64,000 nucleotides of DNA. Source: Octopus vulgaris (taxonomy: Eukaryota). Shown piece by piece: positions 15,095 to 63,234 of the stretch. The stretch covers positions 57,846,001 through 57,910,000 of the forward strand of contig OX597816.1 of the NCBI GenBank assembly GCA_951406725.2. Reading direction: 5' to 3'. The notes under the pieces were generated by a model. That model did no database searches. It was not told where the DNA came from and worked only from the letters and a program-made list of their open reading frames with translations. The position numbers and the translations under genes were made by a program. How positions within the stretch are numbered: position 1 is the stretch's first letter; every line of letters begins with the position of its first letter.

Positions 15095-16241
15095 ATACTG
15101 TTGGTAGAATACCCAATTAATACACAAGTGTTGATTATTGCGTTTTTTTTTTTCTAGTTAATTTTAATTAAATTTTCAAATCATTAAAATGGAATGCCAA
15201 GTTAAAAAAACGAGCATTTTCGACACCTTTTTGCTTTTAATCAAAGCTGCTCGCGACATTTGTGCTGTGTATGGAGAGGGTGCCATAGCTGATTGAACCG
15301 CCAAGTTCAAAAATGGAAATTTTGACCTCAAAGATCCATGTCATTCTGGCTGTCCAAATGAGTTCGATAAAGAGCGATTAAACCAACTTTTGCACGAAAA
15401 TTCTCGTCAAACGACAAGGGAACTGGCAGAGAAAATGGAATGCTCCCACACTGCTATAGAGAAGCTTCTTCACCCGATGGGTAAGGTTCAGAAGTATGGC
15501 GCATGGGCTCCGAATGCTTTAAGTGACACCAACAAAAATCAACGAACCACAATCTCTGCTGGTTTGCTTGCTAGTCACCGCTCAACTCATGGACACAAGC
15601 AACGATTTCTTTACCGAATTGTTACTGGCAACGAAAAATGGTGCCTGTACAGCAATAAGAAGCAGCGTAAGGAATGGCTTACCCCGGTAAACAAGATCTT
15701 CATCTACGTAAAATGATGTTGTGCATATGGTGGGACTGGGAAGGAATTATCCATTACGAATTGCTTGAATGGAACCAAACGGTCAATGCTGAATTCTATG
15801 TTCAACAGATAGAACGAGTCACACGGCTATCCAAGAGAAAAGACCTAATCGGCAATATGGAGTTCTTCTGCTGCACGACAATGCCCACCCTCATATCACC
15901 AATATGATCAAAGAAGCCATTCAAACGCATGGCTGGGAAGTGCTGCCAAACTCACCTGATTTGGCACCAACAGATTTCCACCTCTTTCGATATCTTTCAA
16001 ATGCTATGCGCGGAGTTTCGTTCAATACTGATGCAGAATTGAGAGCTTGGTTGGATCAATTTTTCGAGTCGAAATCGGGTGATTTCTACCGAGGCATTGA
16101 AAATCTTGTTGAATGTTGGGAAGAAGTTGTAAACAACAGGGGTGCATATATTATTGATTAATGAGTTGTTATTTTTTTATATTAAACCTTTATAAAAATT
16201 AAATTTAAAAAAACAGTGGGAACTTAGTAGCCAACCTAATA
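15095..16241 (+). mobile_element. Degenerate mariner element, transposase relic 15189-16161
   Basis: WAPNAL, IVTGNEKW, HDNA and SPDLAPTDFHLF motifs with several frameshifts; right TIR GGGAACTTAGTAGCCAACCTAATA, left TIR eroded. Confidence 0.88.
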
Positions 16242-22765: not shown

Positions 22766-22898
22766 CTCTAAGCTCTCAACTGGCACAAAACCACCTCCTT
22801 CAGTGTCACTTCCTCTCTCAGTATTTAACACTGACAATTTTACGCTTTTTGTATTTTTTTTATTAAACTGAAAAAAATAAAAAAAAATTTTTTTTACT

Positions 22899-23151
22899 TC
22901 CAAATATATGCGGTGTGTGTTTATTTGGCAAAAAATAGTTTTTTTTTGTTGCCAAATATATGGTGCGTGTGTTTATTTGGCAAAAAATAAATAGTTTTTT
23001 TTTGTTGCCAAATATATAGTGCATGTGTTTATTTGGCAAAAAATATTGCTTTTTTTTTGGTTAAAAAAATAGGGTGTGTGTGTTTATTTGGCAAAAAATA
23101 AATTTTTTTTTTTTTTTGTTGCCAAATATATGGTGCGTTGTTTATTTCAAC
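22899..23151. repeat. Minisatellite of five ~52-58-bp hairpin-forming units
   Basis: Unit GCCAAATATATGGTGCGTGTGTTTATTTGGCAAAAAATA(T)nGTT with GCCAAATA/TATTTGGC inverted arms. Confidence 0.85.
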
Positions 23152-23240: not shown

Positions 23241-24791
23241 TCATGACTCACTGTTGAGCAAAGTCGCAAAAAAATTTTTCACAAGAGAGCAACCTTCTTG
23301 AAATTTAACACTTGGTAAGATCTTCAATTGGCTTGGTATGTCTTCATCTTTGCTAAGAACCATTATTTTTTGACAGCCCTTATATTTCATAGATAAGATC
23401 TCTTCTATGAAGAAATTACGAATATTAAAACCCTTTGACAAACAAATAACAATAATTAAACTTTGGTTAAAAATCTTTAGCTGGGTTTTGATTTTGTCTT
23501 GTCCATAGAAATTGTCAGTGTTGTCAATGATACGTAAACCAAACTTTGGATTTTGGAACGATTCTAGCTCTTTCCTGTCGGAGAAATATTTAGTAAAAAA
23601 ACAAACATCATAGGAAAAATTTTCATTCAATTCCTTGAAGGTGATTTGTGATTTTAAAGCCAACAACTGCTTCAAGCAATGCTGACATATTTCACTATCA
23701 TTTGAGACAAAAGCAAATCTTAAAAACGACCCGATCCATATCTCTCTTTCTCTGTATTTTACATAAATATCTTTCTGCAGGATAGCTAAAATTTCCTCCC
23801 GTGGCAATGACTCAGTTTTGCTTTTAAGCATGCTTTGGGGAGAACGTGTTTTGTAATTTTGAATATGATACAGCATCATTTTTGCCAGATCTTTTAAAGG
23901 GATCGAGATTGTATTTTTCTTGGTTTGTACTAACTGTTCTTGGGCCTTCTCAAATTCATTTTTATTTATTAAATATAATGCATTCAAACAAGAGATAAGA
24001 GGATTAAATCTGTCAAGTTTAACAGCTTCTGCAATATAATGTGGTTGTGTTTTAGAAGAGATCGAAGCCAAAAAATAAAAGGACATGGGTTGAGGTCGTA
24101 TAGAATTGATCTTCTCAAGATAGATTCTAGCCTTCTCATAATCATTCTGCCTGATGAAATAATTAGCTATTTTAAGTAAAACTGATGTGTTAGTTATTTC
24201 ATCAACTGGTGTGCTAATTCTCCATTTATCTATCTCCAAGTATTCTGCTTTAATTTCTTCATCTTGTGGAAGTAATTTCGATGCTCCATGCAAATATTCC
24301 TCGTACTCTTCAATGAAATCATCGCTCAACTTTCGTTTAAGTTTAGCTATATGTAGCAAAACTTTGCCATTTTTTGAATTTGATTTTATTGACTCTTCGA
24401 AACACTCCAAAGCGCTTTCATACAGTTCTGGATGCAGACGGCTGAGGGCATAACCTAAACAGGCATAAGCTTCATCAATTCCCAAACAATCGCCTAGTTC
24501 CCTGAATGATTTTTCAGCTATTATATGACGCTTTTTTTCCAAACACCAACAAATATAGTTAATTTTGTATATAAATCTATTCTCTGGCTTTTCAAATTCC
24601 TGTTTCAAGAATTTACGAAGAGAATCATGCCAAATATTCTTTTTATACCGTTCTTCACAGCTTTCTGATTCTACTTTTTTCCTAAGAGTCTGGAAAAGTT
24701 CTTCACTGGTTTTATATAAGTCTTTTTTTTTCAAATAGTCAAATATTTTGAAATGATGAGGACACTGATCTAGTGTACACTTAAGATCCAT
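23241..24791 (-). CDS. IFIT/TTC22-like TPR protein with C-terminal TIR domain, 516 aa, single coding exon
   Basis: N-terminal LDQCPHHF; TPR helices EAYACLGYALSRL...ALECFEESIKSNSKN and VLLKIANYFIRQNDYEKARIYLEKI; TIR at aa ~392-512 (FSYDVCFF, FGLRI..D..YGQD.I, SLIIVICLSKGF...FFIEE, IPSQLK); candidate acceptor TTTCAG 9 nt upstream of the ATG. Confidence 0.8.
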   Translation of the reverse strand: MDLKCTLDQCPHHFKIFDYLKKKDLYKTSEELFQTLRKKVESESCEERYKKNIWHDSLRKFLKQEFEKPENRFIYKINYICWCLEKKRHIIAEKSFRELGDCLGIDEAYACLGYALSRLHPELYESALECFEESIKSNSKNGKVLLHIAKLKRKLSDDFIEEYEEYLHGASKLLPQDEEIKAEYLEIDKWRISTPVDEITNTSVLLKIANYFIRQNDYEKARIYLEKINSIRPQPMSFYFLASISSKTQPHYIAEAVKLDRFNPLISCLNALYLINKNEFEKAQEQLVQTKKNTISIPLKDLAKMMLYHIQNYKTRSPQSMLKSKTESLPREEILAILQKDIYVKYREREIWIGSFLRFAFVSNDSEICQHCLKQLLALKSQITFKELNENFSYDVCFFTKYFSDRKELESFQNPKFGLRIIDNTDNFYGQDKIKTQLKIFNQSLIIVICLSKGFNIRNFFIEEILSMKYKGCQKIMVLSKDEDIPSQLKILPSVKFQEGCSLVKNFFATLLNSES

Positions 24792-25139
24792 AATGACTGG
24801 CTGAAATATCCCACTGCTCTCAGTTTTTTAAAGATTTATTGGTACAGATCTGGAGTTTATATGTGCCAGCCCTGTAGTAAAGAAAAGAAAAAGTTAAAAT
24901 TAGCACAAAATGGAAAAAAACAATACATAAAAAAAAAGAAAGAAGATCCAAAAGTGAGAAAGAATTTGGTGATAGGGATTAGAGGTTTTATTAGATTTGA
25001 AGGGTTATTGGAAGGATTCTCACAGACCATGCAATGTCTAACCAAAAGATTCCTTTTCAAATCCAAAACAGACAACTTTTGTAAGAAATGAAAATATCAG
25101 TTCCAATCACCAAATTCAATCATTATCATTGTTTTATCA

Positions 25140-32117: not shown

Positions 32118-33588
32118 TGTAGTAGTCCCGGGGTCGATTTTCTCGACTAAAGGCGGTGCTCCAGCATGGCCGCAGTCAAATGACTGAAACAAGTAAAAGA
32201 GTATATCTATAAACGAGAAGAAAATGGATGTAAATAATGAGAAACTTGTTTTGTCTGGTACGTCTTTCATTAATTAACAAACAAGGTAGCAAACGCTTCC
32301 TTCTTCGTTAATTAAATTAAAGACATACCAGCGAAAACGACCAGTTTCTCCTTGTTATTTACATCCATTTTCTTCTTGTGTATAACCTAAACTACGGTCC
32401 TACCTACCGAACTACCTGCTACCGTACAACTTTACAAAGGACTGTACCTACCCAGTTAATAACCAGGAGCGCCTTTGGATTTAATTATCCTTTAGAGGTT
32501 TTAAACTCCTCTAACTGATACCTACACAATATATGCGCCAACGAAGGGGGTGGGGAGAGGCCTCGGAAAATTAATTCACATTCACAGAGGAGTGTGTAAA
32601 AAAAATGAGTAACCAAGAAATATTAAATAAATCACGAAAAAAGGGGCACCTCCGAAGGATTCTAGTGGAAACCCCACAAAACCACGATCATCCTGATCTC
32701 TAAAGACCAAGAGCTTTATGTTCAGGGAAAATCCCTTCACTTGAATCATATTTAACACACATCCACATTTCGATAAATTTGCAGCACTTCCCTCTTTGCT
32801 TTAGAAAAGTTGACAACGGCATGGCCAAAGATAGGAGTGTCTATCTTCGGCCCTTTCAATCTGGTCCACCACAGAAAAATAGCCAGTACCTCCTATCCTC
32901 CTCAGACAAAGGAAGGTGGTGAAAGACGGGCGATTATTTATGTCGGAGAAATCATACACAATCCTGTGGTCCATACAGCAAAAGCAGAGTAAAGAGAAAA
33001 TTGGTCACAATTTCTTTCTAATAATTAAGATATAAGCATTCAGTTTTAAGTGCCAAGAAATCCCCTTTCCCCGATATAATATTTTACTTTAAAAATCTCA
33101 ATAAAACAATAAAAAACGAGACCCAACGAAGAAAGACGAAGAGCATCTTACATGGTCATCTGGTTAAAATTTTGAAAAATGTTTTGGTTGCATATTCCTA
33201 ATTTCCGACATGTAAAAACCTAGGAATCCGAATAAACTTTATCAGAAAAATGCATTTTCCAAGGTGAGGTGCGATTAAAGAGCTCAGCTTTGAATACTTT
33301 TTGATTATCAGTGTGTTTGATGAAGTCCGCCGCCGCAACTTAAATAACAACAAACACCTCTACCTGGTCGCACGATGGGCTAGAAATAGCAACCAATAAG
33401 TGCGCCTTCAAATTACAGCCAATCAACTTTTAAAACGTGACAGTTCGTCGCAATGTATTGGTAGAAAATCTTCACGAGTGGATTGCTTTCTGATTCCATG
33501 TGACAAGAATAACAACAACAACATATTCGCCACTTCTAGAACATTCCATTAAACTTAGCGAAGAAAACTCCTTTTAATATCAATGTTT

Positions 33589-33618
<30 letters not shown>

Positions 33619-33619
<1 letters not shown>

Positions 33620-33769
33620 TGGTAAAAACGGTAAGATAACAAAAGAAAGAAAGAGACCTCAATATTATCTAAATAGAGGAAATTTATCTGTAAAATAATA
33701 TGTGACAATTATTCAATAGCCAAGTTTTATCTTGGCTATTAAATAATTGTCACATATTACTTTACAGAT

Positions 33770-43178: not shown

Positions 43179-43610
43179 ATAATTATAATCAGGGATCAGC
43201 TAATTGCTTCACTACACACCGAATTTAGAAATAACAGTTAAAATGCATTTTCTGCTACCATAAAGATCTTTAAAAGGAAGTGGTTTCAGAGGAAACTGGT
43301 CGTGTAAAGTGGGAGCAGGAAGGAATGAAGTGTGCTTGTTCTGTTCGAATGATTACAGCAGCAAACTACAATAGAAAAGTGATGAAAGGAGGAAGTCATA
43401 CAGGTGAGATGTTGAGGAATGTGGGAAGTGGAACTGTGGGTAGAGGTGATGTGGGAGATGGGACTAGCGGAGAGGGGCGATTCAACTGTGAGGTACACTT
43501 AATGTTGATTGAATAATGGCAAGAGAAAAGCCACCCAGCACTTGTAAAGACATCAGAGAAGAAATTATTTCTTGAATTAAAGGAACTGAGAAGAAAAAAT
43601 AATTACTTAC

Positions 43611-43664
43611 CACAGTTTCTTTGTAAACTTGTTGAATATCAGGATCAATACGTTGCCAAATTTC
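43611..43664 (-). CDS. Coding exon E3 of the uncharacterised gene
   Basis: Acceptor TTTTGTTTTTTCAG, donor GTAAGT; 54 nt, phase 0-0; EIWQRIDPDIQQVYKETV. Confidence 0.75.
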
Positions 43665-44299
43665 CTGAAAAAACAAAAATTTTCTTAATTAACAAACTCC
43701 AAGAGAAATTAACTTTTATCTCAATATTTCACTGCCTAGGGTTTTATAATAATCAAAATTTGTGAAAGAATTATTTAAAAAATGAATTCTAATTTTTAAT
43801 CTGCTGTTTAGAACATAATGTAAAAGTTTTTTTTAGATAAAATGAAGACAGGTTTTAAATGAGATAATAATTAAAAAAAAAAAAGGTTTATCTTCCACCA
43901 GCCATGCTCTCTTCTGTTAAAACCCCTTTTATCTTTATCACTCCTAATGATCCCACATATCTAACATCCCACCCCCACTGAGCCACTCCTATATCTATCA
44001 CCATCAATTACCAGTCACCTCTCTACCATCTAACCAACTTTCCTTACATTCTTATGAAACTTACCCCTCTCCCCCCCAATGCAATCCTCTGTGTCCCTTC
44101 ACCCATTTTCTCCCCCACTGTGCCTTTGACACACATCCACCACCATCTCTCTCTTTCTCACTCTCTCCATCTCTTTCTCTACTTTCTTCTCCAACATCTC
44201 ATCTATTGGCACAAAGCCATCTCCCTCAATATTATCCCCCACCTCACCATTTGAGGGGACTTTGTCTTGCATGTTGCTTGGTGACCCTACTAGTACCAT

Positions 44300-48442: not shown

Positions 48443-48535
48443 TGAATCAGTGGACTGTAAAATATCTACTGGGACCATAGTGATTATTTTCTTCACAAAA
48501 CTTCCAATTTTCAGGACTTCTTGCATGGTAAGAAA
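48443..48535 (-). CDS. Coding exon E2 of the uncharacterised gene
   Basis: Acceptor TTTTTCCATTTCTTACAG, donor GTAAGA; 93 nt, phase 0-0; FLTMQEVLKIGSFVKKIITMVPVDILQSTDS. Confidence 0.72.
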
Positions 48536-48638
48536 CTGTAAGAAATGGAAAAATGCATGTTTAAGTTCACCCAACGCACACACATTTTCTCTATTCCTCA
48601 TTGACAACATACTAATTGTTAAATGTGAAATGTTTTAA

Positions 48639-48858
48639 CCCTTTCGTTACCAACCTGCCTGAAACCACTTCTGGCTCTGTAGTACAAATGTCGCGTTTTC
48701 CTAAGTTTTGAATTAAAATCTTCCTCCAAACCTTAGCCACAATTCATGTTCCTAACACTAGCGTAATGATAACTAAGTTATTTTACTAAATTCTTTGTTA
48801 TTTTCAAAATTAATTGAAAGAAATAGAGTATCTCAAAATTTATACTGTAACAAAAGGG
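48639..48858. mobile_element. piggyBac-type MITE
   Basis: TTAA|CCCTTTCGTTAC...GTAACAAAAGGG|TTAA. Confidence 0.88.
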
Positions 48859-49574
48859 TTAACATTCACTTTACTGGACTGGCAAGTAAAAAGTACCATT
48901 TGAGCACAGCCGATGCCAGTGCCACCTGATTGGCACGTAAAAGGCATCATTTGAGCATGGCTGATGCCAGTGCCGCTTGACTGGCTCCCATGCTGCTGGC
49001 ACATAGAAAGTACTCACTATACTTTTAGAGTGGTTGGTGTTAGGAAGGGCATCCAGCTGTAGAAACCTTGCCAGATCTGATTGGAGCCTGGTGCAACATC
49101 CTGGCTTGCCAGTTCTCAGTCAAACTGTCCAACCCATGTCAGCATGGAAAGCAGATGTTAAATGATGATGATGATGAAGGTTGACCAGGGCTGGCAAGCT
49201 GCACCAGACTCCACTCTGATTTAGCATGGTTTCTATGGCAGGATACCCTTCCTAACACCAACCACTACTAGAGTGTAATGGGTGCTTTTATGTGCCACCA
49301 GCATCTGTCACAACTGCGATTTCACTTGGCTTGAGGGGTCTTCTTCTCAAGCACAGCATGTCGCCAAAGGTCTTGGTCATTGCCTCTGTGAGGCCCAACA
49401 CTCGAAAGGTGCTCTTCACATGCCACTGGCACGGATGCCCATTACACGACACCAACATCAGCCATGACCATGATTTCAGTTGGCTTGACCGGTCTTCTTC
49501 TCATGCACAGCATGTCGCCACATTATAGCAAATAAGCAATACAGTAAAACATTTGAGGAAAAAAAATCACTGAC

Positions 49575-49736
49575 CGTCTCACCGTGGCTGCAGTGTTTCT
49601 TCACAGATGGTGTTGCTTCAAGCAGGTGGCACTGCTTAAAAAAATCTGTTAATTTCAGGTGCATCTGTAGCAATATACTCAGATTGGTTTCATCACAAAA
49701 GACAGAGGTAATGGTATGCTCTAGTGATGTTGCCAT
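49575..49736 (-). CDS. Coding exon E1 (first in-frame ATG; exon begins at 49743) of the uncharacterised gene
   Basis: Acceptor TATTATTTCAG, donor GTCAGT; 54 codons MATSLEHTITSVFCDE...HCSHGET; may be an internal exon. Confidence 0.65.
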
Positions 49737-50089
49737 TACTATTCTGAAATAATAATAATATATAGACATGTATTTATGTAAATATATAAGGACACAGGAA
49801 AAAAATGTGTCGAAGCCATCAGGAGGCATCGATGCTTCCTAGGGCTAAACAGTGGTGGTGTAATCCCCTACTGTCAAGTTAAATTGACAGTATACAACCA
49901 TTCTATCGCCCCATAACTGTACATATCTCTATGAGATATTTAAAAATTTAATATTTCAGACATGTATTTCTTATCCTAATACAAGAATGTTGTTGACAGT
50001 AATATTCTTGTTTTGGTATAATAAATTTGTACTCAACAAAAGTATAAAGCAGTGGTTCCCAGCCTGGGGGCCCGTGAACTAAACTCAAA

Positions 50090-50138
<49 letters not shown>

Positions 50139-50290
50139 ATACGATATAGTGTATATTTAAACACATAGAGAATCCACTTATAGGGATTCTACGCGCTAGA
50201 AAGAACAGCTAAGTTCTATAACCACAAAAAATTCGGGATAAAATTCAACAGGAATAAATTTGGAAATGAAAAACATTTACCATCTAGTTT

Positions 50291-50361
50291 CCTGGACCAA
50301 TTGGTTTCTTATCTTTTAGCGAGTCATGGAGAACTCACAAGGTTTGATTTTCTTCAGCAGG
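50291..50361 (-). ncRNA. Type I hammerhead motif with eroded stem II base
   Basis: CCTG-CTGAAGA...GAAA-CCAATTGG-TC-CAGG (GUC site, palindromic stem III). Confidence 0.75.
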
Positions 50362-50799
50362 TCCAACCTAGTGATAAACATATCCACACGAGACAAACAA
50401 GGCTAGCTGTCTCGTGTTCATACGAACTAACTTTTCAAATTTACTGCACAGACGCATTCCTACGTTGGCTATAATAAAAAACCGCCAACCTGGTGGGGGA
50501 AAAGGTGTCAGGGCATACCATAAAATTTACAAGAAGTTAGATAAAGAGAGAACAGAGACTGAGAATACAGGATGGTTGGATGGACAGTCTTGTTGGAGGT
50601 GTGGTCAATGGTGAATCTCAGTTTGTGGGGGTGAAGTAAAAGAAATACAAGTGGGTTGGAAAGGTGGGGGAGGTGAAAGGCGGTAGTACATAAATGGTGG
50701 TGGAGATAACATCATCACCATCATTTGATGTTTGTTTTCCATGCTGGCATCGGTTGGATGGTTTGATAAGTGTGTATGAAAGTGAGTATGCACAAGTAT

Positions 50800-51193
50800 A
50801 GGCGCAGAAGTGGCTGTGTGGTAAGTAGCTTGCTTACCAACCACATGGTTCCGGGTTCAGTCCCACTACGTGGCATCTTGGGCAAGTGTCTTCTACTATA
50901 GCCTCGGGCCGACCAAACCCTTGTGAGTGGATTTGGTAGACGGAAACTGAAAGAAGCCTGTCGTATATATATATGTGTGTATGTTTGTGTGTCTGTGTTT
51001 GTCCCCCTAGCATTGCTTGACAACCGATGCTGGTGTGTTTACGTCGCCATCACTTAGCGGTTCGGGAAAAGAGACCGATAGGTAAGTACTGGGCTTACAA
51101 AGAATAAGTCCCGGGGTCGATTTGCTCAACTAAAGGCAGTGCTCCAGCATGGCCGCAGTCAAATGACTGAAACAAGTAAAAGAGTAAAGAGTA
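50800..51193 (+). mobile_element. CORE-type composite SINE
   Basis: Near-identical to 4135-4578. Confidence 0.85.
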
Positions 51194-51941
51194 AGTGTGT
51201 GTGTGTACGCAGAGCAAGATAAAATACACGATTAATTTCACTTACTGGAAAAAGACGACAGAGATGAACGTCTTGGAATTGTCAAGAATCACATTTGTTA
51301 TGAGATCAGATGTAAGTAAAGAATCATTGTGCAGTGACTGAAGCAAGAAAGGAAACTGTACCAAGATGTTGCCGAGAGATTCCAAAAGAAGAGGATTTTG
51401 GTAAGCCTGAAAGAAAGAGAAACATGATAAAACTTGCAGAAGAGGTATTATATGGACACAGATATTGTGTTATTAAGAAATTTGTTTTATAACCACATGC
51501 TACTGTGTGGCACCTTGGACCAAGGCCCTACATCAAACAAAGTCCTGTGACTGGAAATTGGCAGAGTGGAACAATGTGAGGGAAATGGAAGATTCTTTTT
51601 TGTTCTTAACGGGTATTTAGGGATTGTTGTTACTGAGACGGTTCCTAGTTCACAGCTATTGATGCAGGCAAAGGTATACACCAGTAAAGATACACACACA
51701 GAGGCAGATATATATATGTATGTATATATACACATTTTGTAGGCAGACACATATATATGATTGCTTGAAATGGGGAGTAGACAGACACCTGACAACTGAT
51801 GAAGGGTCATTCTTTCCATTACTTGTCTTTTTTTCTCTCGTTATTTGCGTATTTAATTCATTTGGTTTCGTATTTCTAGTTGTTTACTGTTGGTGGCATC
51901 CTCTACCCATATATGTATATATATGTGTATATATGTATATA

Positions 51942-51988
<47 letters not shown>

Positions 51989-52073
51989 ATATATATATGT
52001 CAGTCGCGTTTTTTTTCCCTCCGTTCGCCCGCTTCGGGATCTTTCCTTCTTTCTTCTTTCTTCCTTCTCTTAT

Positions 52074-52108
52074 GTTTCCGACGAAGAGCTCCGCTCGAAA
52101 CGTCATAC
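52074..52108 (+). ncRNA. Minimal hammerhead motif (U4C variant)
   Basis: GTTT-CCGACGA-A-GAGC(TCC)GCTC-GAAA-CG-TC-ATAC; same family as 57612. Confidence 0.68.
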
Positions 52109-52829
52109 CCTCCTTCTTCCATTTTTCCTGAGCGCCTAATAATAATAATACTTTAATTGTTCCACGTGTTTGACTCAGGGCTGGTGAGCCAGATGGCTGC
52201 ACCAGACTCCAATCTCATCTGGAAAAGTTTCTACAGCTGGATGCCCTTCCTAATGCCAAACACTCTGAGAGTGTAGCAGGCACTTTTATGTGCCACTGGC
52301 ACGTGGGTCAGTCAGGTTCTGGCAACGCCCATGCTCAGAAGGTGTTTTTTATGAGCCACTTGCATGGGAGCCAGTCCGGCGGCACTGGCAACAACCATGC
52401 TGGAATGTTGTTTTTCACATGCCACCGGCATATGTGCTGGTAAGGCGATGCTGAATGGACATAAATGGGTTTTGCGATTGGGTGCATGAGATAGAGATAG
52501 AAAGAAAGAGGTATAGGAGAAAGGATTTAAAAATAACATAGTGGTAAAAGGGAAAAAAATAAGTATAAAATAAAGAGGTTTCCGGAGGTTGGCAAGAGAG
52601 GTTGTCTGAGGAAAAGGCTTCTTTGTTCCAAAAATTTCAGTCTTGCAGGGCTTCATGATATACAATGTTTTTGGTTTCACTGTTGGGTGCATAGATGAAC
52701 AAATTTTCTGTATTTCCAACTCTAGAGCCTCCGACATAGAGCTATCCGTGAGAAAAAGCAGGTCCTACCACTTCCAATACTAAGAGAAGGAGCAACAGAG
52801 TATCACGCAGAGATAGGTACTCACACATT

Positions 52830-52889
<60 letters not shown>

Positions 52890-52945
52890 CAGAATGATGC
52901 ACAAAGATAGGCACACACACACACACACACATGTGCACATACCTA

Positions 52946-53335
52946 TTTCTTTACTACCCACAAGGGGACAAACAAGGACAGACAAACAGATGAGGTCGAT
53001 TATATTGACCCCAGTGTGTAACTGGTACTTATTTAATCGACCCCGAAAGGATGAAAGGCAAAGTCGACCTTGGTGGAATTTGAACCAAAAACGTAGCGGC
53101 AGACGAAATACCTATTTGTTTACTACCCACAAGGGGCTAAACACAGAGGGGACAAACAAGGACAGACAAACGGAGTAAGTCGATTATATCGACCACAGTG
53201 CACAACTGGTACTTAATTTATCGACCCCGAAAGGATGAAAGGCAAAGTTGACCTCGGCAGGATTTGAACTCAGAACATAACGGCAGACGAAATACGGCCA
53301 CGCATTTCGCCCGGCGTGCTAACGACTGCCAGCCA
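52946..53335 (-). mobile_element. Nin-domain SINE with tandemly duplicated 3' part
   Basis: Two successive reverse-complement matches to 4877-5101. Confidence 0.8.
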
Positions 53336-54117
53336 ACACATGCACACCCACACATACATACACCTCTCAGTATAGCTGCTGATCTCTCGCTGCAACATTA
53401 GAGTTACCATCGCACACACACAAATACACACACTCAGTTACTGTTACACACATAAACAAACACACGCTAATATACACCCACACGCTGCCATACATACACA
53501 TGCTTACACACATTCACATGACACCATACATACGCACACACATGCAGAGATACCAACCATTATTCACTCTCCTATCCCAGAATGCACTTTTCTTTCTCCT
53601 GTTTCTGATCGTTTAAAAAATATGACTCCACATGGACTGTTGGCAATTTGTTTTCTTCTCTCTTTCTTTTCCTTTGGACTCTCCAATGTTACTTTCTATA
53701 CATATATTGCCTTTGATATATATATACATACACATACACATACAAATACGTTATATATAAATATGTGCCAATGGCATGTAAAAAGCACCCACAACACTCA
53801 CAGAGTGGACGGTATTAGGAAGGGCATCAAGCTGGAGAAACACTGCCAGATGAGACTGGGCCTGGTGCAGCCTCCTGGCTTCCCAGACCCCAGTCAAGCC
53901 GTCCATCTCATGCTAGCATGGAAAATGGATGTTAAACGATGATGATGATGATATATATATAAATGTACTGATAAGAAAAGAAATGAAACAACAATTAACA
54001 ATTAAAAGTTGATCATTGACATTAAAAGGTCATAGTTTAATACCAATTATCTAGTTGTTAATTGTTCCATTTCTTGTCTTATCTGAATATATTAAACCAT
54101 GATTTACCATTTAAACC

Positions 54118-54217
54118 ACCGACTACTGTTAATCTTATAGGAAGGCCTATACATAGTGAGGTAACACACCAGTTGGTGTATTACCTCACTATTTAAAAAT
54201 ATAGTCACTCATCAGGT
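54118..54217 (-). ncRNA. Degenerate hammerhead motif with a near-perfect long hairpin in stem II
   Basis: ACC-TGATGA core and GTC-GGT end are present, but GAAA reads TTAA; hairpin at 54153-54192 has one G-U pair on the minus strand. Confidence 0.45.
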
Positions 54218-54344
54218 CTAAAATAATAATCAGATAAATATTGAAGAATACGTGTTTTAACAATTAATACATTAATCTCTTAGATGGTTGCATAACCTCT
54301 AACTCATAATTTTTATATAACACACACACACATATATATATATA

Positions 54345-55100
54345 ACATCATTGTCATTTAATGTATATTTTCCATGCTGGCATGGGTTAGATGGTTTGAC
54401 TGGAGACTGGCAAAGTTTCTACAGCTGGATGCCCTTCCTAATGCCAACCACTCCGAGAGGCTAGTAGGTGCTTTTTATGTGCCACCGGCTCGCGGGCCAG
54501 TCAGGCAGTACTGGCAGTGTCCACGCTTGAATGGTGCTTTTTACATGCCACCGGCATGGGAGCCAGTCAGGTGGCACTGGCAATGATCACGCTCAAATGG
54601 TACTTTTAACGTGCCAATCAGGCAGTACTGTCATCGGCCACGACATCAATTTCACTTGCCTCAACAGATCTTTGCAAGCGCAGTTTATTGCCCAATGATT
54701 GAAGGGTACTCTTAAATAGGCTGGTTGTGCTGCACTGGCATAGGCCATGGTTATGGCCTCACTTAGCTTGCTGGGTCTTCTCAATCACAGCATATCTCCA
54801 AAGGTCTCAGTCACTTTTCATTGCCTTGGTGAGGCTCAATGTTCGAAGGTCGTGCTTCACCACTCCATGCTAGGTCTTCCTGGGTCTACCTCTTCCACAG
54901 GTTCTCTCTACTGCTAGAATGTGACATTTTTTCACACAGCTGTCCTCATCCTTACGCAACACATGACCATACCAGCGCAGTCATCTCTCTTGCACACCAC
55001 ATCTGATACTTCCAACTTTTCTCTCAAGGCGCTTACACTCTGTCATGTATGCACACTGACATTACACATCCAGCAAAGCATACTGGCTTCATTCCTTGCT
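54345..55100 (-). mobile_element. RTE-clade LINE 3' fragment
   Basis: Minus strand ERXLRWYGHVLRKDEDSCVKKC...GRPRKT, then the 3' UTR repeats. Confidence 0.85.
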
Positions 55101-55754
55101 AGCTTTTGGTTTCCTGTAGCATTGCTCTCTTTTACAAACTCGGTGAACATTCATATATTTCTGATTTCAAAGAAATTTGAACAATAGATATAAAACCCAA
55201 GTTAAAAAAGATACCCAACAATTCAACTTCTCTGGTTGACTTCAAGATTCCCCCACCCCTCAAAGAGGCCTTAACTTCCACATTTTAGAAATCCACGTGC
55301 TCCATTTCTCAGGAGCAAAAACCTTTGAATAGGTTTCATAAGATTTGGATTTTGGAATCTGGGCATAAATACGAGTAATATGGGATAAATATGTCATAAT
55401 TAGAATTTTTGTTAGGTTGTGTAAAGTGGGAAAGAACCACCATTAAAATTCTTAATCTCCAATTTTGATGAAATTTGAATCATAAGTATTTCAGTTCATT
55501 ACAGAAAATATAAAAGAAAAGTCTAATTCTTCAATTCCAAGTGACAAGGGCAATGCCCGCTGTCTTGACTGGCTTCTGAGCAGGTGGCATGTAAAAAGCA
55601 CCCACTACACTCACAGAGTGGTTGGCATTAGGAAGGGCATCCAGCTATAGAAACACTGCCAGATCAGACTGGAGTCTGGTGCAGCCTCCTGGCTTCCCAG
55701 ACCTCAGTCGAACCATCCAACCCATGCTAGCATGGAAAATGGACGTTAAACAAT

Positions 55755-55814
<60 letters not shown>

Positions 55815-56048
55815 ATCATCATCGTTTAGCGTCCGCTTTCCATGCTAGCATAGGTTGGACGGCTCAACTGGGGTCTGGGAAGCCAGAAGGCTGCATCAGG
55901 CCCAGTCTGATCTGACAATGTTTCTACGTCTGGATGCCCTTCCTAGCGCCAACCACTCCGTGAGTGTAGTGGGTGCTTTTACGTGCCAGACGAGGCTGGC
56001 AAATGGCCATGATCGGATGGTGCTTTTTACGTGCCACCGGCACGTATG

Positions 56049-56090
<42 letters not shown>

Positions 56091-56212
56091 GGGTAGAATC
56101 TGTAAATTTAGGGTGAATACTTGATAAGTGTAAGCACCTCTATATACCAGATAGTGGCAGAGATGAGAGAGAATATATCAAATAAAATTAAAAACAGAAC
56201 ACAAAGGATATC

Positions 56213-56303
56213 GTGGTACACATGTTTCAAGCTTTATAAACAACCCGTTATTACATCAGTGCATTATTGACATAAAAGATGGTTTAAAGCTTTCTTCAGC
56301 CAC
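56213..56303 (-). ncRNA. Type I hammerhead ribozyme with extended stem II, plus an inverted partial copy at 56349-56428
   Basis: GTGG-CTGAAGA-AAGCTTTA...TAAAGCTT-GAAA-CATGTG-TA-CCAC; the inverted copy has GAAACACGTGTA. Confidence 0.82.
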
Positions 56304-56418
56304 AAACATTGTTAGTCCAAAGAATTACATCATAGATGTAATTCTTTACACTGATGTAATAACGGATTGTTTATAAAGCTTGAAACACGTGTACCACGAT
56401 ATCCTTTGTGTTCTGTTT

Positions 56419-56450
<32 letters not shown>

Positions 56451-56495
56451 GAAAAAATAAGTCAAAATGGTAAAATTATTTTATAAAGAACATTT

Positions 56496-56533
56496 CAGTA
56501 CCGTTTTCAGTCATTTTGAGACCTTTTCAACTG
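56496..56533 (-). ncRNA. Minimal hammerhead variant with U3-A8 core pair
   Basis: CAG-TTGAAAA-GGTC(TCAAAAT)GACT-GAAA-ACGG-TA-CTG. Confidence 0.55.
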
Positions 56534-56679
56534 TAACGATTAAATAATTAAATTTAGAAAAATTAAAAGAAATGTTTTTTTTTAAAGGAATATTTGTATA
56601 GTGTTCAAATATAAGTGGCATTTTCCTTGTTTCTGCCTTGCTCTATCTCTCTTGTTCACACTTGTGGGTTCGAGGTCGT

Positions 56680-56733
<54 letters not shown>

Positions 56734-56734
56734 C

Positions 56735-57540
56735 AGGGTCTGATGGCATCTGTGCAGAAGTCTTGAAATATGGGAGTGACAAAATCTTTGAGCTCTTAAA
56801 TATATTAATTTGTCACTGTTGGAGAACTGAGAAAGTGCCTCAGGACTGGATTGATGCCATTTTAGTTTCCTTGTATAAATCGGGGCCAAAGGATATGTGT
56901 GGTAATTTTCGTGGTATTTCATTTTTGTCTGTGTGGTTGGAAAGGTACTTGCCTGCATTTTGTTAGAACGTTTAAATATTTTTATAGTTCCAAATATAGT
57001 GTCTGAGCCTCAGTGTGGTTTTCATTCCTTCAGGGACACAGCTGATTGTATCTTTACGGTCAGACAATTACAAGAAAAGTGCATTGAACAGAATCTTGCT
57101 CTATACCATTGCTTTGTTGATTTGAGCAAAGCATTCGATACTGTTAATTGAAATGCTCTGTGGCTAATTCTAAGGAAAATAAGGTTGCCCAGAAAAATTT
57201 GTCAACATGATCAGGGTTTTGCATCAAGATATGAAGGCTAGAGTTAAGCTTTGGTGGTAGGTTCTCTGAAAATGGAAAATGGAGTAAAGCAAAGAGGCCT
57301 TGATGCACCCAGTGTATGACAGAAGGTTTGCAAATCCAACAGAGACTTCAAAAGACATTTTAAGATCCACAAAGATTAGAACTTATCTGCAGCTCTTGGT
57401 GGTCCAAATTGGATATGCAATCTATGTGAGTGTCTTTTCAGAACATTGTCTAGTTTAAAAAGCCACATCAGATGCCATGATGGTGCTAAAGTGTAGGTAC
57501 AAGAGGTGGTCAAACTCTGCATAAGGAGTAGACAACCACC
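56735..57540 (+). mobile_element. RTE (BovB-like) LINE remnant: RT N-terminal part plus C-terminal C2H2 finger
   Basis: VPQDWIDAILVSLYK, GNFRGIS, QCGF, RQLQEKCIEQ, FVDLSKAFDTVN; later ICNLCECLFRTLSSLKSHIRCH. Confidence 0.85.
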
Positions 57541-57611
57541 ATATATAAGTGCGTGTGTACCGTTGGTGATTTTTTTCCTCTATCTTCCCTTCTCTGGATC
57601 TTTCCTTCTAT

Positions 57612-57646
57612 GTTTCCGATGAAGAGCTACGCTCGAAACGTTAAAC
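57612..57646 (+). ncRNA. Minimal hammerhead motif (U4C variant)
   Basis: GTTT-CCGATGA-A-GAGC(TAC)GCTC-GAAA-CG-TT-AAAC. Confidence 0.72.
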
Positions 57647-57757
57647 CCTCCTTCTTTCCTGAGCGTCCAATAATACTATATTTGTTCCACGTCCTCGCAT
57701 TGTTGTGTTTTCTCTTTGTGTTTTCATGTTTGGATTAACTATATATATATATATACA

Positions 57758-57820
<63 letters not shown>

Positions 57821-58212
57821 CGAGCTTCTTTCAGTTTCTGTCTACCAAATCCACTCACAAGGCTTTGGTCGGCCGAAGGTTATAATAGAAGACACCTGCC
57901 CAAGGTGCCACACAGTGGGACTGAACCCCGAACCATGTGGTTGGTAAGAATGCTACTTCCCCACAGCCACACCAGCACCTATATCATACTAAAAATATAT
58001 ATACTCTGATTTAAAGTGACATTTATATATAAACAATTGACTTATTATATCTAATAAGGCAACCAAGTTGTTCTTAGGCTGAACATAACAAGATAGTTAA
58101 GTATGGAAAAAATGAAAAACAAAAGAACGGAGTAGATATCAACAAAATAAAGTGTTCATGCATGAATGCTCATGAAAAAGGCAAGTGTAAATCGCTGGTA
58201 TGAATTGATTAA

Positions 58213-58433
58213 CCCTTTAGCATTTAAACCGGCCATATCCGGCTGAAATGTTCTGCTTGTTTTATGTTCAAATTGGCCAGATGCAGCCTCTCACACAGAC
58301 CCTATAATGTCATTCTTACAAATAAACAATTGCATCATCGAAATCTTGAAGCTACATGAACATGCATGTTTAATTCAAAACAATATGCATTAATAAGCAT
58401 TACAATTGACAGAATGATCTGAACACTAAAGGG
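58213..58433. mobile_element. piggyBac-type MITE (second family)
   Basis: TTAA|CCCTTTAG...CTAAAGGG|TTAA. Confidence 0.85.
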
Positions 58434-59801
58434 TTAAACCCAACTCTACAGACAGTCACGGTATCTGGACAAAATCCCACCGAGAATAAAATTTACACAA
58501 AAATATCAACTAATCATCATCATCAACCATGTTTGGATGGTGCTTTTTACGTGCCACTGGCACAGGGAGCCAGTCAGGCGGGACTGGCATCGACTCACAC
58601 ATAAATGGTGCTTTTTACATGCTACTGGCATGGGGAGCCACTCAGGTGGCACTGGCATCGACCCACAAATGAATGGTGCTTTTTACGTGCCACCGGCATG
58701 GGGAACCAGTCAGACAGAACTGGCATTGAAACATGCACGAATGGTGCTTATTGCATGCCACCAGCACAGGTGCCAGTCAGACAGAACTGGCATTGACCCA
58801 CGCATGAATGGTGCTTATTGCGTGCCAGTCAAGCAGCACTGGCAATGGCCACAACTACAATTTCCATTTTGATTTCAATTTGATTGAGATTCTGATAGTG
58901 ATTTTGGTCTTACTTGACACAACAGGTCTTCTCAAGCATAGCGTATCAAAGGTACTTTTTAAACGGGCTGGTTATGTGACACTGGTATAGGCTACAGCTG
59001 TGATCTCACTTTACTTGCTGAGAACATTTCACTTTCCTAAAATATTTTTGTCGTAAAGAAAGAATACCCTGGTGGGATTTTGTCCTGGTACCCAGTCACA
59101 CCTGTGCATATACACAGTTATAGACACGTGTCCATATATACTTATGTACACACACACACACACATAAAAAATACATACACCCATACACATACAAATCTTT
59201 CAAAATATATACATTACACTAAATAAAGACATTTACCAGCATAAATATCATATGCATACATTCACGCCAGCATTGAAAATGGATGATTGATGATGATGAT
59301 GATGAAATATACCAAATGTTTGGGTCCTGGGACAGCAGCAGCAAGAACGGGGTGAGAAGATGGGGCTGAGGGGAAGGCTATACTGTTGCGAAGAACAATG
59401 ACACACACACACATGCACAAATATGGATGCAAACGCATGTGCACATTAGGTTACACATCATATGAGAGCAGAATGGAGTAAGTGGAGCAAGAGCACACCC
59501 GAAGAGGTCACACATGTGTGATGAAAGATTTTGGGATAATGGATGGGTTAGATTAAGAACAGTAATAACCGAGTGCGTGTGTTTCTTTGGCAAGTGAAAA
59601 AATATGACCATCCCGGAATACAATATATATTAAAAGGCAGTTTGAATCTTGCTTACTTGCAATGTTACCCAGTCAAACTGGAGCATAATGGGAAAATACT
59701 ATGAATTAACTTTACCCTGAAATGTTATTATGAATGGAATGAAACAAGTTTTGCGTGTATCAGTAGTTATTGAGATATTCGGGGTTTGGGGATATAAATA
59801 C

Positions 59802-59846
59802 CCAAAACAGTGCATAATGGGAAAATGTTCCGAATTTAACTTCATC
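59802..59846 (-). other. Candidate 45-nt upstream exon
   Basis: Acceptor CTTCTTCCCTTTCAG, weak donor GTATTT; open in two frames. Confidence 0.35.
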
Positions 59847-60410
59847 CTGAAAGGGAAGAAGCTCTAACCATTCGACGTCACATTCATTGAAAGCATGCAA
59901 ATAACCTGGAAACGAAAAAAAACCCCCACAAAACAAAACTCTTTTGCTGGGAAACTCAGTTTCCTTGTAACCCAACAGGTCACGGGTCATCATCATCATC
60001 ATTGTTGTTGTTTAACGTTCACTTTCTATGTTGGCATGGGTTGGCCAGAAGGCTGCACCAGGCTCCAATCCAATCTGGCAAAGTTTCTACAGCTGGACGC
60101 GCTTCCTAACACCAACCACTCCGAGAGTGTAGTGGGTGCTTTTTACATGTCACCAGCAACGTAACTTGATATATACCCATATATAAAATCTGTATTCATA
60201 TTCTGTTCTCACTTGGTGTTATGTAACTGGCACCTGTGCCAGTGCCATGTAAAATGCACCTCCTACTCTCAGACTGGTTAGTGTTAGGAAGAGCATCCAG
60301 CCATAGAAGCTCTACCAAATCAGATTGAAACCTGGTGCAGCTCCCAAGCTTACCAGTTTTTAGTCAAACCGTCCAACTCATGCCAGCATGGAAAATGGAT
60401 GTTAAATGAT

Positions 60411-60443
<33 letters not shown>

Positions 60444-60455
60444 GGAAGTGGGGGA

Positions 60456-60668
60456 GAGGGGCCTGAAAAGTTCCTGGCTTTGGGTAAAAGAAAACACAGG
60501 TGGATTGATTAATTATGATTTTATTTAACATATTCTCTTCTCAGATCCACACACTTATTGCGGAAGTCCTTCAGTTTTTCTAAACCCTGTAAAAGAATTT
60601 GGAAGTCGGGCCTCTAAGCAAGCCTTTCGCAAACCCCTTAAAACCAGGAACTTTTCAGCACCCCCTTG
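60456..60668. mobile_element. Mariner-type MITE
   Basis: TIR GGGG..CTGAAAAGTTCCTGG / CCAGGAACTTTTCAGCACCCC. Confidence 0.7.
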
Positions 60669-61223
60669 TGTATATATGGCAGGTTTGCTACCAAATCCGC
60701 TGACAAGTCTTTGATCAGTTCTGTGTTTTAAAAGAAGACGTGTGCCCAAAGTGCGTTGCAATGGGGCTGAATTCCAAACTCCATAGTTAGCAAGCATATT
60801 CTAAACTCCACAGACATGTTTGTGCCTAACACCTCACACATACAGAGGCATATATATAATAAGAGTAAATAATTTCTATAATGGTTTTTAAAAAAAGACC
60901 ACAATTATTTACTGGTAGAATTCGGTATGTAAATATAGCCGATTAACGGTAGGAACTTCTGTAAAGTTCAGTATATATATTGTATATAAGAAAAAGGGAC
61001 AGGCAACAGGTTGCTTGACCGCACACCGAAAAAGTAGAAATAGCAGTCAAGAATGCTTATTTCTATTTTCCAAACCACCAGACTTCGTTTGCGAGGCATA
61101 TATATATATATATATATATACACACATTTACACTTGTCTACAAAGGTGTACAGACAACAATTGTTTGTTAAAATATTATCTTTGCATTCACAGCAGAATT
61201 TATGTGGAAGTTTGAATACTTAC

Positions 61224-61283
61224 AAAGTTGAGAAGATGTTGAGCTGCAGTACTTAACAAATAAATAAAGGCAATACTGAACAC
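61224..61283 (-). other. Candidate 60-nt upstream exon (UTR or coding)
   Basis: Strong acceptor TCTGTTTATTCCACAG and donor GTAAGT; frame 0 reads VFSIAFIYLLSTAAQHLLNF. Confidence 0.5.
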
Positions 61284-63234
61284 CTGTGGAATAAACAGAC
61301 GAGAAATATTTCAAAGTAACCAATGTATTTGCAGTTATGTCATGGTTCAATCCCAGGGTTAAAACTGTATGTGTATGACATTGAAAATAGATTATTTTGT
61401 TAAGGTTATTTCTACAGAAATTATAACCAGCACTAAATTTTTGCTATAGTGTTTTGTATCGAAATGTTAGAGGTTGTAGCATGGTAGCCAGTGGCAGACT
61501 GGGTTAAAAAATATTGGTTGCCAGGAGACTAAGGTGGCCCACCTGCAACTACAATCATCATCATCATCATCATGTAGCGTCCGCTTTCCATGCCAGCATG
61601 GGTTGGACGGTTCAACTGGGGTCTGGGAAGCTAGAAGGCCGCACCAGGCCCAGTCTGATCTGGCAATGTTTCTACAGCTGGATGCCCTTCCTATCGCCAA
61701 CTACTCCATGAGTGTAGTGGGTGCTTTTTACGTGTCACCGGCACAGGTGCCAGACGGGGCTGGCAAACGGCCACGGTCGGATGGTGCTTTTTAAGTGCCA
61801 CCGGCATGGGAGCCAGGCGAGGCTGGCAACGGCCACGATTGGATGGTTTGTTTACGTGCCACCGGCACTGGTATCACAGCTGCAATTTCCATTGTTACAA
61901 TTTAATTTGTTATAATTTAATTGTTATAATTTAATTGTTATAATTTAATTTGTTTTTTTGTTAAAAGTATTCTTTTCAACTGTCTACAAACACAGCCAAG
62001 TTGAAATAATGCATTCTTCCAGGAGTGAAAAAATTCTCAAACTTGAGGGGATGGGCCCCCATATATAGATTCTAATGGCGCAGGGGTCCACTCGCCATTG
62101 GGCAAGCTGGCCAGTCCACCACTGGTTGTAGCAAAAAATGAGTACTAGCTAAAATGTCTGTCAAAATAACATTGATAAAATAATGTGAAGAGCACTGCTA
62201 ACACAGGAGGATATGGTGTTGATTTATAAAAACATTCACTATGCTTTATAGCAGTGGTTCCCAACATTTTAGCACTTGTGAGCCCTTACCCAAAAGCTTG
62301 AAACCCACGTGACCCCCTACTATTAGTAGAGCATAAAAAAATATAATTGATGAGTTGAAACTAATATTATTCCAAGCCACTTCTAGCAAGGTTATGTGAC
62401 CTCACTACTAAGGCTTCTTGGCCTCAGAGGGATCAGGAACCACTGGTAGGGAACCCCTACTTTATAGTATATTATGGTTGCATAATGAAATTCCATGTGC
62501 CTGCAAGTCTTTAATTGAGAATAGAGTCTTTCTTTATCAATTAGATGGAGACATTAAGAATATTAAGATAAAGATGTTCCAGTGGAGAAAGATGGTGCTG
62601 CCACTGTCAATGATGATGGTTGTGTGTGTGAATGAAGTTAACAAATAATTACCTTGACTCCAAAAATGGTCAGCATGGGTTCAGTCCAGGTAATGTTTCT
62701 AGTGATGTTGAAAATAATGAAAAGGTAATTAAAACACGTTTCGAAATTGTAAAATGATAATTAGGGTAGATATCAACTTTGTTTAACAGCCACTTTTCCA
62801 TGCTTCCATGGGTCACTTGGAATTGGTTAAGGTGGATTCTCTAAGACCGGATGCCCTCTCTGTCATCAACCTGCACCCGTTTCCATGGTAATATTTCTCC
62901 CATGACAAGACATGTCTTCATAGAATATTGGAAACAAAGAACAGAGCTTGCATGATGGTGAAACTTGTTTACAACTGTCAAGTGGTATCAAGGCAATGAC
63001 ACACAAACACAGCTACATGATGGGCTTCTTTCAGTTTCCACCTACCAAATTCACTCACAAGACTTTGGTCAGCCTGAGGTTAAAGCAGAAGACACTTGCC
63101 CAAAGTGCCATGCAATGAGATTGAACCCAAAACCATGTGGTTGGGGAGCAAGCTTCTTACCACACAGTCACACCTGTGCCTCCATAATTAAATTTAAAAT
63201 AGCAAACTGGCAATTAGAGTACTCTTTATTTTTT

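What the first reader, a model, noticed from the sequence alone, without database searches (positions are those of the whole stretch)
23241..23618. TIR domain keeps a Glu at the NADase catalytic position (E464)
Seen: LSKGFNIRNFFIEE aligns without gaps to the TIR betaC-alphaC pattern LSxxFxxSxWCxxE, placing E464 (23400-23402) at the catalytic Glu and F460 at the Trp. Established: SARM1, plant TNL and bacterial Thoeris TIRs need this Glu to cleave NAD+. Inference: the domain may be an enzyme rather than an adaptor. Caveat: the Ser, Trp and Cys are substituted, and many non-enzymatic TIRs also keep this Glu.
Basis: inference. Interest (0 to 1): 0.7.

Follow-up and report, generated by a model that had tools for sequence, protein, structure and literature searches.

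The report
Octopus TPR-TIR gene sharing FANCA's exon
This is a real, fast-evolving octopus gene for a repeat protein ending in a very divergent immune-type TIR domain; the glutamate noticed is probably in the enzyme position but most TIR domains keep it, so enzyme activity is unproven, and the odder feature is that the gene sits in the last exon of the DNA-repair gene FANCA.

Summary
In detail: E464 is at 23400-23402 (- strand) in a 516-codon ORF, kept in the O. bimaculoides orthologue (80% identical). Residues 394-516 are a TIR fold by Atlas structure matches (TM 0.68-0.76) and my profile test (z 6), though Pfam, HMMER and AlphaFold2 do not show it. The Ser-to-Glu spacing of 12 fits 41 of 53 bacterial TIRs, so E464 is probably the catalytic-position Glu; alignment posteriors alone are not firm. 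This barely supports an enzyme: the Glu is in >70% of all TIRs, including non-enzymatic TLR1/2/6/10, and the domain carries adaptor-class marks (TIRAP-like Box 1, Box 3-like FF). I put scaffold at about 0.55 and NAD+ enzyme at about 0.2. New here: the ORF lies in a terminal exon that a transcript contig joins across an 18.7-kb intron to FANCA, whose frame stops 65 nt before the ORF. An 8-nt element at 33159-33152 could be the gene's own first exon or a micro-exon; with the one-base-shorter sequence seen in two transcript contigs it gives a 545-aa protein or a 1,806-aa FANCA-TPR-TIR fusion. Neither form was observed.

The parts
23241..24791 (-). TPR-TIR ORF, 516 aa from the annotated Met (P0001); no intron
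   Evidence: covered end to end by single contigs of runs X4 and X20
23862..24641 (-). TPR superhelix, about aa 51-310
   Evidence: Pfam TPR_2/TPR_8 E about 1e-5, below curated cut-off; Foldseek hits to CTPR, IFIT5, OGT E about 1e-5; VIA Z up to 14.4, rmsd 6.3, 230 aligned
23244..23612 (-). divergent TIR domain, aa 394-516
   Evidence: Atlas structure TM 0.68-0.76 over 118-130 residues in 10 of 10 rows; global profile z 5.97, 0 of 400 shuffles; no Pfam hit
23400..23402 (-). E464, probable equivalent of the TIR catalytic-position Glu
   Evidence: weaker
23418..23420 (-). variable codon 458: Arg (window), Ser (X4), Cys (X20, P0002)
24872..24873 (-). splice acceptor of the terminal exon (exon starts at 24871)
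   Evidence: contigs of X4 and X20 both leave the genome at 24872; splice signal
24857..24859 (-). FANCA stop codon when the 54-nt exon joins directly; 65 nt before the TPR-TIR ATG
24823..24829 (-). homopolymer where both spliced contigs are one base shorter than the window; decides whether upstream frames run into the TPR-TIR ORF
   Evidence: table 4
33152..33159 (-). 8-nt element with acceptor, two ATGs and donor: micro-exon of annotated FANCA model P0006, or 3' end of the TPR-TIR gene's own first exon
   Evidence: not seen in a contig
33201..33622 (-). candidate own promoter/first exon (inferred): four CCAAT/ATTGG boxes, CpG o/e 1.06
   Evidence: rank 10 of 118 non-repeat windows, median 0.57; weak
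43611..43664 (-). 54-nt FANCA exon joined to the TPR-TIR exon across intron 43610-24872
   Evidence: loose end of X20 maps here exactly; P0006 aa 1244-1261
48443..62698 (-). five further FANCA exons: 62698-62653, 61283-61224, 51406-51246, 49743-49575, 48535-48443
   Evidence: tblastn of P0006/P0007/P0008; Pfam FANCA domains; GT-AG sites

Best explanation
A cytosolic, probably immune-related TPR-TIR protein of the invertebrate TIR-domain-containing class. The TPR superhelix binds a ligand or partner (inferred), binding clusters the protein (inferred), and the C-terminal TIR works as a TIR-TIR scaffold of the TLR/IL-1R/TIRAP kind rather than as an efficient NADase (inferred). E464 is the ancestral TIR Glu, kept as in most TIRs. 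The ORF fills a terminal exon that FANCA transcripts also use (shown for one contig). It is most likely translated from its own first exon ending at 33152 (545 aa) or by downstream initiation at 24791 (516 aa) (both inferred).
For: Real gene: intact in two species at 80% identity, with 4 of 4 indels in frame; spliced contigs cover it. TPR fold. TIR fold. Nearest Atlas clusters by features are animal TPR(+TIR) proteins of about 750 aa from echinoderms and molluscs (score 0.93-0.95). Adaptor-class marks: Box 1 starts YDVC as in TIRAP; an FFxxL at 507 stands where Box 3 FW lies, a motif the paper says is absent from prokaryotic TIRs and seen in 0 of 53 bacterial domains. The FISY Tyr has no clean equivalent, and the two alphaB hydrophobic columns fall on K433/Q437 (0 of 53 each) in the best global alignment. 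Fast change: 27 of 32 listed changed codons against X20 are non-synonymous and 5 of 5 against X4; pN/pS 1.5 on listed sites, lower bound 0.28.
Against: No binding partner, ligand or expression pattern was tested; an immune role rests on domain type and rate only. Box 2 (RDxxPG) is only partly there. E464, an aromatic at 460, D423 and G430 are all kept, as an enzyme would need. With a two-residue shift Y402 can take the Tyr column (posterior 0.27-0.65) and a one-residue shift puts I434/L438 in the alphaB columns, so the pocket losses are not firm. No sequence-level link to any TPR-TIR family: a full HMMER scan found only P0001 itself and 3 generic TPR proteins.
Confidence: 0.55

Rival explanations
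1. The TIR is an active NAD+-processing enzyme (hydrolase or cADPR-isomer cyclase) switched on when TPR ligand binding oligomerises it.
For: E464 at spacing 12; aromatic at E-4, found in all cyclising TIRs examined (W 9, Y 2, F 1 of 12); BB-loop D423 and G430 match SARM1 D594 and G601, whose mutation lowers activity; a basic residue at E-6 occurs in active SfSTING (R78) and AbTir (K202); AbTir L177A stays active, so loss of that alphaB hydrophobic is not fatal; animals have more enzymatic TIRs than SARM1 (Raw; oyster TIR-STING listed as active in a passage).
Against: Glu is uninformative; TirB/TirD counter-examples; adaptor-class Box 1 and Box 3-like marks; position 458 switches among Arg, Ser and Cys; register posteriors are soft.
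Confidence: 0.22
2. A decaying or loosely constrained paralogue: the TIR fold is kept but no longer signals, and the TPR part does whatever work remains.
For: No Pfam TIR hit; near-neutral pN/pS on listed sites; about 240 aa shorter than the nearest animal clusters; no relative outside Octopus.
Against: The TIR region is at least as conserved as the rest (83-86% against 74-84%); all indels in frame; 22 of 60 X20 differences were not shown, so the ratio may be as low as 0.28.
Confidence: 0.15
3. Residues 394-516 are another flavodoxin-like alpha/beta domain and the motif is chance.
For: Pfam, NCBIfam, PADLOC, PDB sequence search, HMMER and hhalign give nothing significant for the domain.
Against: 10 of 10 Atlas structure rows are TIR clusters or the mollusc TPR cluster at TM 0.68-0.76; profile z 5.97 and 4.59, 0 of 400 shuffles each; five spacings fit TIR.
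Confidence: 0.08

Closest known systems
Invertebrate cytosolic TPR-TIR / ecTIR-DC proteins (Atlas clusters of 749-767 aa from echinoderms and molluscs; class named in passages of PMC6321704, PMC5549309, PMC9334734)
   Same: N-terminal TPR superhelix plus C-terminal TIR, no membrane helix; Atlas feature score 0.93-0.95, and structure match of both halves to one mollusc cluster
   Different: 516 or 545 aa rather than about 750; no detectable sequence homology; TIR below Pfam detection; gene embedded at the 3' end of FANCA. Which ecTIR-DC family it belongs to could not be checked (Gerdol 2017 seen only as a citation)
TLR/IL-1R/TIRAP/MyD88 scaffold TIRs
   Same: Box 1 YDVC as TIRAP; FFxxL at the Box 3 place; Phe in the CC loop; Glu kept as in TLR1/2/6/10; Atlas matches to IL-1RAcP TIR at TM 0.73-0.75
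   Different: no RDxxPG (only a shortened D/N-F-x-G), no death domain, no transmembrane helix, TPR instead
SARM1/TIR-1, plant TNL and bacterial (AbTir, SfSTING) NADase TIRs
   Same: Glu, aromatic at E-4, BB-loop Asp and Gly in register
   Different: no ARM/SAM or NB-LRR; FISY not intact; SARM1 group motifs absent; activity untested
Genes sharing one exon in two reading frames, or with a second ORF behind the stop (CDKN2A INK4a/ARF-type arrangement; recalled, not from a call)
   Same: two upstream exons can splice to one acceptor and enter it in different frames
   Different: FANCA uses only 4 codons of the exon; the own first exon is inferred, not observed

Membership tests
TIR domain superfamily | five-stranded flavodoxin-like TIR fold | tested here: met
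   Atlas model TM 0.68-0.76 to TIR clusters; my two AF2 models were too poor to test it
TIR domain superfamily | match to Pfam TIR/TIR_2 or related HMMs | tested here: not met
   0 families at E up to 10 for aa 385-516; also NCBIfam and PADLOC
TIR domain superfamily | end-to-end fit to a TIR profile | tested here: met
   z 5.97 and 4.59, 0 of 400 shuffles; domain start chosen by eye; local HMMER/hhalign not significant
NADase TIRs (SARM1, plant TNL, bacterial) | Glu at the alphaC catalytic position | tested here: met
   spacing 12 as in 41 of 53; posterior 0.41-0.82, lower with the column neutralised and in P0002
NADase TIRs (SARM1, plant TNL, bacterial) | aromatic residue four before the Glu | tested here: met
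   F460, kept in P0002; F is the rarest allowed
NADase TIRs (SARM1, plant TNL, bacterial) | BB-loop Asp and Gly (SARM1 D594, G601) | tested here: met
   D423, G430; posteriors 0.83-0.89 and 0.61-0.90; spacing 7 as in 34 of 53
NADase TIRs (SARM1, plant TNL, bacterial) | betaA pocket residues (FISY; SARM1 Y568) and alphaB hydrophobics | tested here: inconclusive
   K401 or Y402 in the Tyr column, K433/Q437 or I434/L438 in alphaB, depending on gap cost
NADase TIRs (SARM1, plant TNL, bacterial) | Glu inside a pocket completed by a neighbouring TIR in an oligomer | not testable with these tools
NADase TIRs (SARM1, plant TNL, bacterial) | measured NAD+ cleavage | not testable with these tools
   needs an assay
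SARM1 orthologues (group 24) | ARM and SAM domains; E(R/K)LEAG BB loop; His in alphaC | tested here: not met
   TPR, no ARM/SAM; motifs absent in the sequence
TLR/IL-1R/MyD88/TIRAP scaffold TIRs | Box 2 RDxxPG | tested here: not met
   N/D-F-Y-G only
TLR/IL-1R/MyD88/TIRAP scaffold TIRs | Box 3 FW at the start of alphaE; Box 1 | tested here: inconclusive
   FF at 507-508 in both species, YDVC at 394; no tree could be built with animal TIRs
invertebrate TPR-TIR proteins | N-terminal TPRs plus C-terminal TIR, cytosolic | tested here: met
invertebrate TPR-TIR proteins | sequence homology to the mollusc/echinoderm clusters | tested here: inconclusive
   only language-model and structure likeness; HMMER found none

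The most novel reading that the evidence does not exclude
FANCA transcripts that include the 8-nt micro-exon and carry the shorter homopolymer read straight into the TPR-TIR ORF, making a protein of about 1,806 aa that joins a Fanconi DNA-repair scaffold to a TIR that cleaves NAD+ through E464: a link between DNA-damage sensing and NAD+-based signalling in octopus. I put the fusion being made at about 0.15 and the TIR being an enzyme at about 0.2.
Probability: 0.04. Interest if true: 0.85.

Novelty: new member of a known kind. Interest (0 to 1): 0.4.

Why it matters
Only a few animal TIRs are known enzymes, and several TIR clades of molluscs and other non-model animals are uncharacterised (PMC13142454), so an active TPR-gated TIR in a cephalopod would add a mode of animal NAD+ signalling; the present evidence makes that about a one-in-five bet. 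Practically, the domain is invisible to Pfam and so is missing from octopus TIR inventories, and the gene model needs care: the start, and whether FANCA and the TPR-TIR are one transcript, two proteins or a fusion, hang on one base and one 8-nt element.

Tried and rejected
No whole genome is held for this window, so paralogues could not be counted. Search for longer or fused forms of 904-2580 aa found none among 7,997 candidates (weak evidence). PDB sequence searches gave no TIR. AF2 with 2 sequences: full length pLDDT 48.6, residues 377-516 below 50; domain alone 36.7; Foldseek on the domain model gave nothing at E up to 0.001 and is meaningless. Local HMMER and hhalign with the bacterial profile were not significant (hhalign probability 0.7%), and a free-end alignment collapsed. 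No relative in viral contigs. Pfam on 14 single upstream frames did not identify FANCA. No RNA holder is on record as RNA in the run list; run X1 gave no cover of the ORF, which proves nothing. One search had a column-index error in two rows, redone. Earlier findings of the scan: nothing for this genome or these sequences; 8 notes on other organisms, not used. Literature: no paper naming the orthologue's accessions, 1 listed for octopus + TIR domain + TPR, about Aplysia, and none relevant among 5 for FANCA + octopus. Rejected: a SARM1 orthologue; a transposon-derived ORF (the hAT element next door is separate); bacterial contamination (spliced, between octopus repeats, orthologue in a second species).

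Full report
1. Observation. The finding lies in a 516-codon ORF on the - strand, 23241-24791. E464 is at 23400-23402 and F460 at 23412-23414. The 14-residue motif is there and aligns without gaps, but by itself it is modest evidence: 2.35% of 20,000 shuffles of the ORF hold a relaxed version.

2. What the gene is. The only relative found is P0002, an uncharacterised 521-aa Octopus bimaculoides protein, 80% identical over the full length; a full HMMER scan of 1.84 billion representatives returned only P0001 itself and 3 generic TPR proteins. A protein matching the window's upstream exons at 98-100% is named Octopus vulgaris by its source, so the window is octopus. The ORF is a real gene: 4 of 4 indels against P0002 keep the frame (chance 0.012), and single contigs of runs X4 and X20 cover it and leave the genome at a splice acceptor. 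About aa 51-310 is a TPR superhelix (Pfam below cut-off; Foldseek and VIA hits to consensus TPR, IFIT5 and OGT; these are generic TPR matches). The Atlas places the protein nearest to animal TPR(+TIR) clusters of 749-767 aa.

3. Is the C-terminus a TIR? Probably (about 0.9). The Atlas's own model of aa 385-516 matches at TM 0.68-0.76 in 10 of 10 rows, 8 of them named TIR for the aligned part. I built a profile from 53 of the 67 bacterial TIR loci fetched (14 left out: 4 with stops, 1 unpublished, 9 partial or weak). End-to-end alignment scores z 5.97 for P0001 and 4.59 for P0002, 0 of 400 shuffles each, and above all 7 same-length windows of each protein's TPR part; I chose the domain start by eye, and shuffles do not keep amphipathic pattern. 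Against: no HMM library, PDB sequence search, HMMER or hhalign hit, and AlphaFold2 failed on two sequences.

4. Is E464 the catalytic-position Glu? Probably (about 0.8). In the 53 domains the distance from the betaC Ser to the Glu is 12 in 41, 13 in 7, longer in 5 and never shorter; S452 to E464 is 12. D423-G430, G430-S444 and S444-S452 also have the commonest spacings (34, 50 and 53 of 53). But posteriors with uniform gap costs give E464 only 0.41-0.82, 0.11 or less with the Glu column neutralised, and prefer a Phe three residues earlier in P0002; so part of the match is the Glu finding itself. E464 is unchanged in P0002 and in X4, whose 6 differences are all listed. For X20 only 38 of 60 differences are shown, and X16 does not cover the codon, so these two say nothing. 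With 110 of 132 domain residues identical to P0002, conservation in one orthologue is expected by chance.

5. Does the Glu mean enzyme? Hardly. Toshchakov and Neuwald (PMC7075850; sections 10 and 35 and passages read) report E75 in more than 70% of all TIRs, more than 90% in TLR1/2/6/10, not correlated with activity. Amoeba TirB and TirD keep it and showed no NAD+ cleavage (PMC13142454; abstract, section 5 and passages). For a scaffold: Box 1 begins YDVC like TIRAP, and FFxxL stands at Box 3, which the survey finds in TLR, IL-1R and MyD88 groups and not in prokaryotes (0 of 53). The FISY Tyr and the alphaB hydrophobics are lost or shifted, unresolved. The bacterial set is of untested activity and was picked by Pfam, so its 51 of 53 Glu is partly selection. 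Net: scaffold 0.55, enzyme 0.22, decayed 0.15, not TIR 0.08.

6. Rate. Of listed differences, 27 of 32 codons against X20 and 5 of 5 against X4 are non-synonymous; pN/pS is 1.5 on listed sites and 0.28 if all 22 hidden ones were silent. The neighbour FANCA is 87% identical between the two named species against 80% here. This fits an immune gene or relaxed constraint.

7. The unexpected part: FANCA. The X20 contig (5,555 nt) has 3,604 nt before the acceptor; its loose end maps exactly to a 54-nt exon at 43664-43611, across an 18.7-kb GT-AG intron. That exon and five more upstream encode the C-terminus of FANCA. In this join FANCA stops 4 codons into the shared exon (24859-24857) and the TPR-TIR ATG follows 65 nt later: one transcript with two ORFs. 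X4 leaves at the same base, but its loose end was not shown. The annotated FANCA model P0006 instead inserts 8 nt at 33159-33152, which has an acceptor, two ATGs and a strong donor, and enters the exon in another frame that stops at a homopolymer near 24823. Both spliced contigs are one base shorter there, which would open that frame for 29 codons into the TPR-TIR ORF: 545 aa from a start at 33159, or 1,806 aa as a FANCA fusion. A weak promoter signature lies just upstream of 33159. Against: no contig shows the 8-nt element; the unspliced X16 contig has no gap at that place, like the window, so allele, assembly error or something else is open (2 against 2); no fused protein was found; and P0002 is annotated from the same Met. 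The O. bimaculoides FANCA models end in yet another exon, at 26442.

8. Mechanism, by status. Shown: gene, TPR fold, splice join to FANCA in one contig. Supported: TIR fold, E464 register. Inferred: ligand binding by TPRs, clustering, TIR-TIR scaffolding, immune role, own first exon. Untested: any enzyme activity.

9. Novelty. Cytosolic TIR proteins of unknown function are a described invertebrate class (passages of PMC6321704, PMC5549309, PMC9334734), and enzymatic animal TIRs beyond SARM1 exist (PMC13455253 abstract and section 5). I found no paper on this gene or its arrangement with FANCA; subscription journals, including Gerdol 2017, are not in the library. The Glu is ordinary; the hidden TIR and the shared exon lift the interest to 0.4.

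Noticed in passing
window 19926-22765: Apparently intact autonomous hAT (SPIN-like) transposon: perfect 16-nt terminal inverted repeats, perfect 8-nt target duplication, 629-aa transposase at 20687-22576 (+); it ends 475 nt past the TPR-TIR stop.
   Followed up: partly
window 22888-23147: 56-nt tandem repeat, 4.7 copies, with internal inverted arms and an AATAAA in each copy on the - strand, in the 3' UTR region; X20's contig runs into it.
   Followed up: no
window 24823-24829: Both spliced contigs (X4, X20) are one base shorter than the window, the unspliced contig (X16) is not; allele, error or RNA/DNA difference unresolved.
   Followed up: partly
window 26442-26336 (-): Alternative FANCA terminal exon used by the O. 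bimaculoides models; the window has a stop inside it, and it lies among repeat-like sequence. The FANCA C-terminal end thus differs among three models.
   Followed up: partly
window 23418-23420: Three amino-acid states at one codon beside the TIR pocket, two of them apparently within one species.
   Followed up: partly
window 27328-29503 (+): Broken LTR-retrotransposon-like pol frames (RT/RNase H/integrase-looking, judged by eye) inside the last FANCA intron; other transposon fragments at 10173-11852, 15390-16161 and 56586-57151.
   Followed up: no
window 43485-43688 (-): The frame holding the 54-nt FANCA exon gives a weak KRAB-box hit (E 0.08); probably chance.
   Followed up: no
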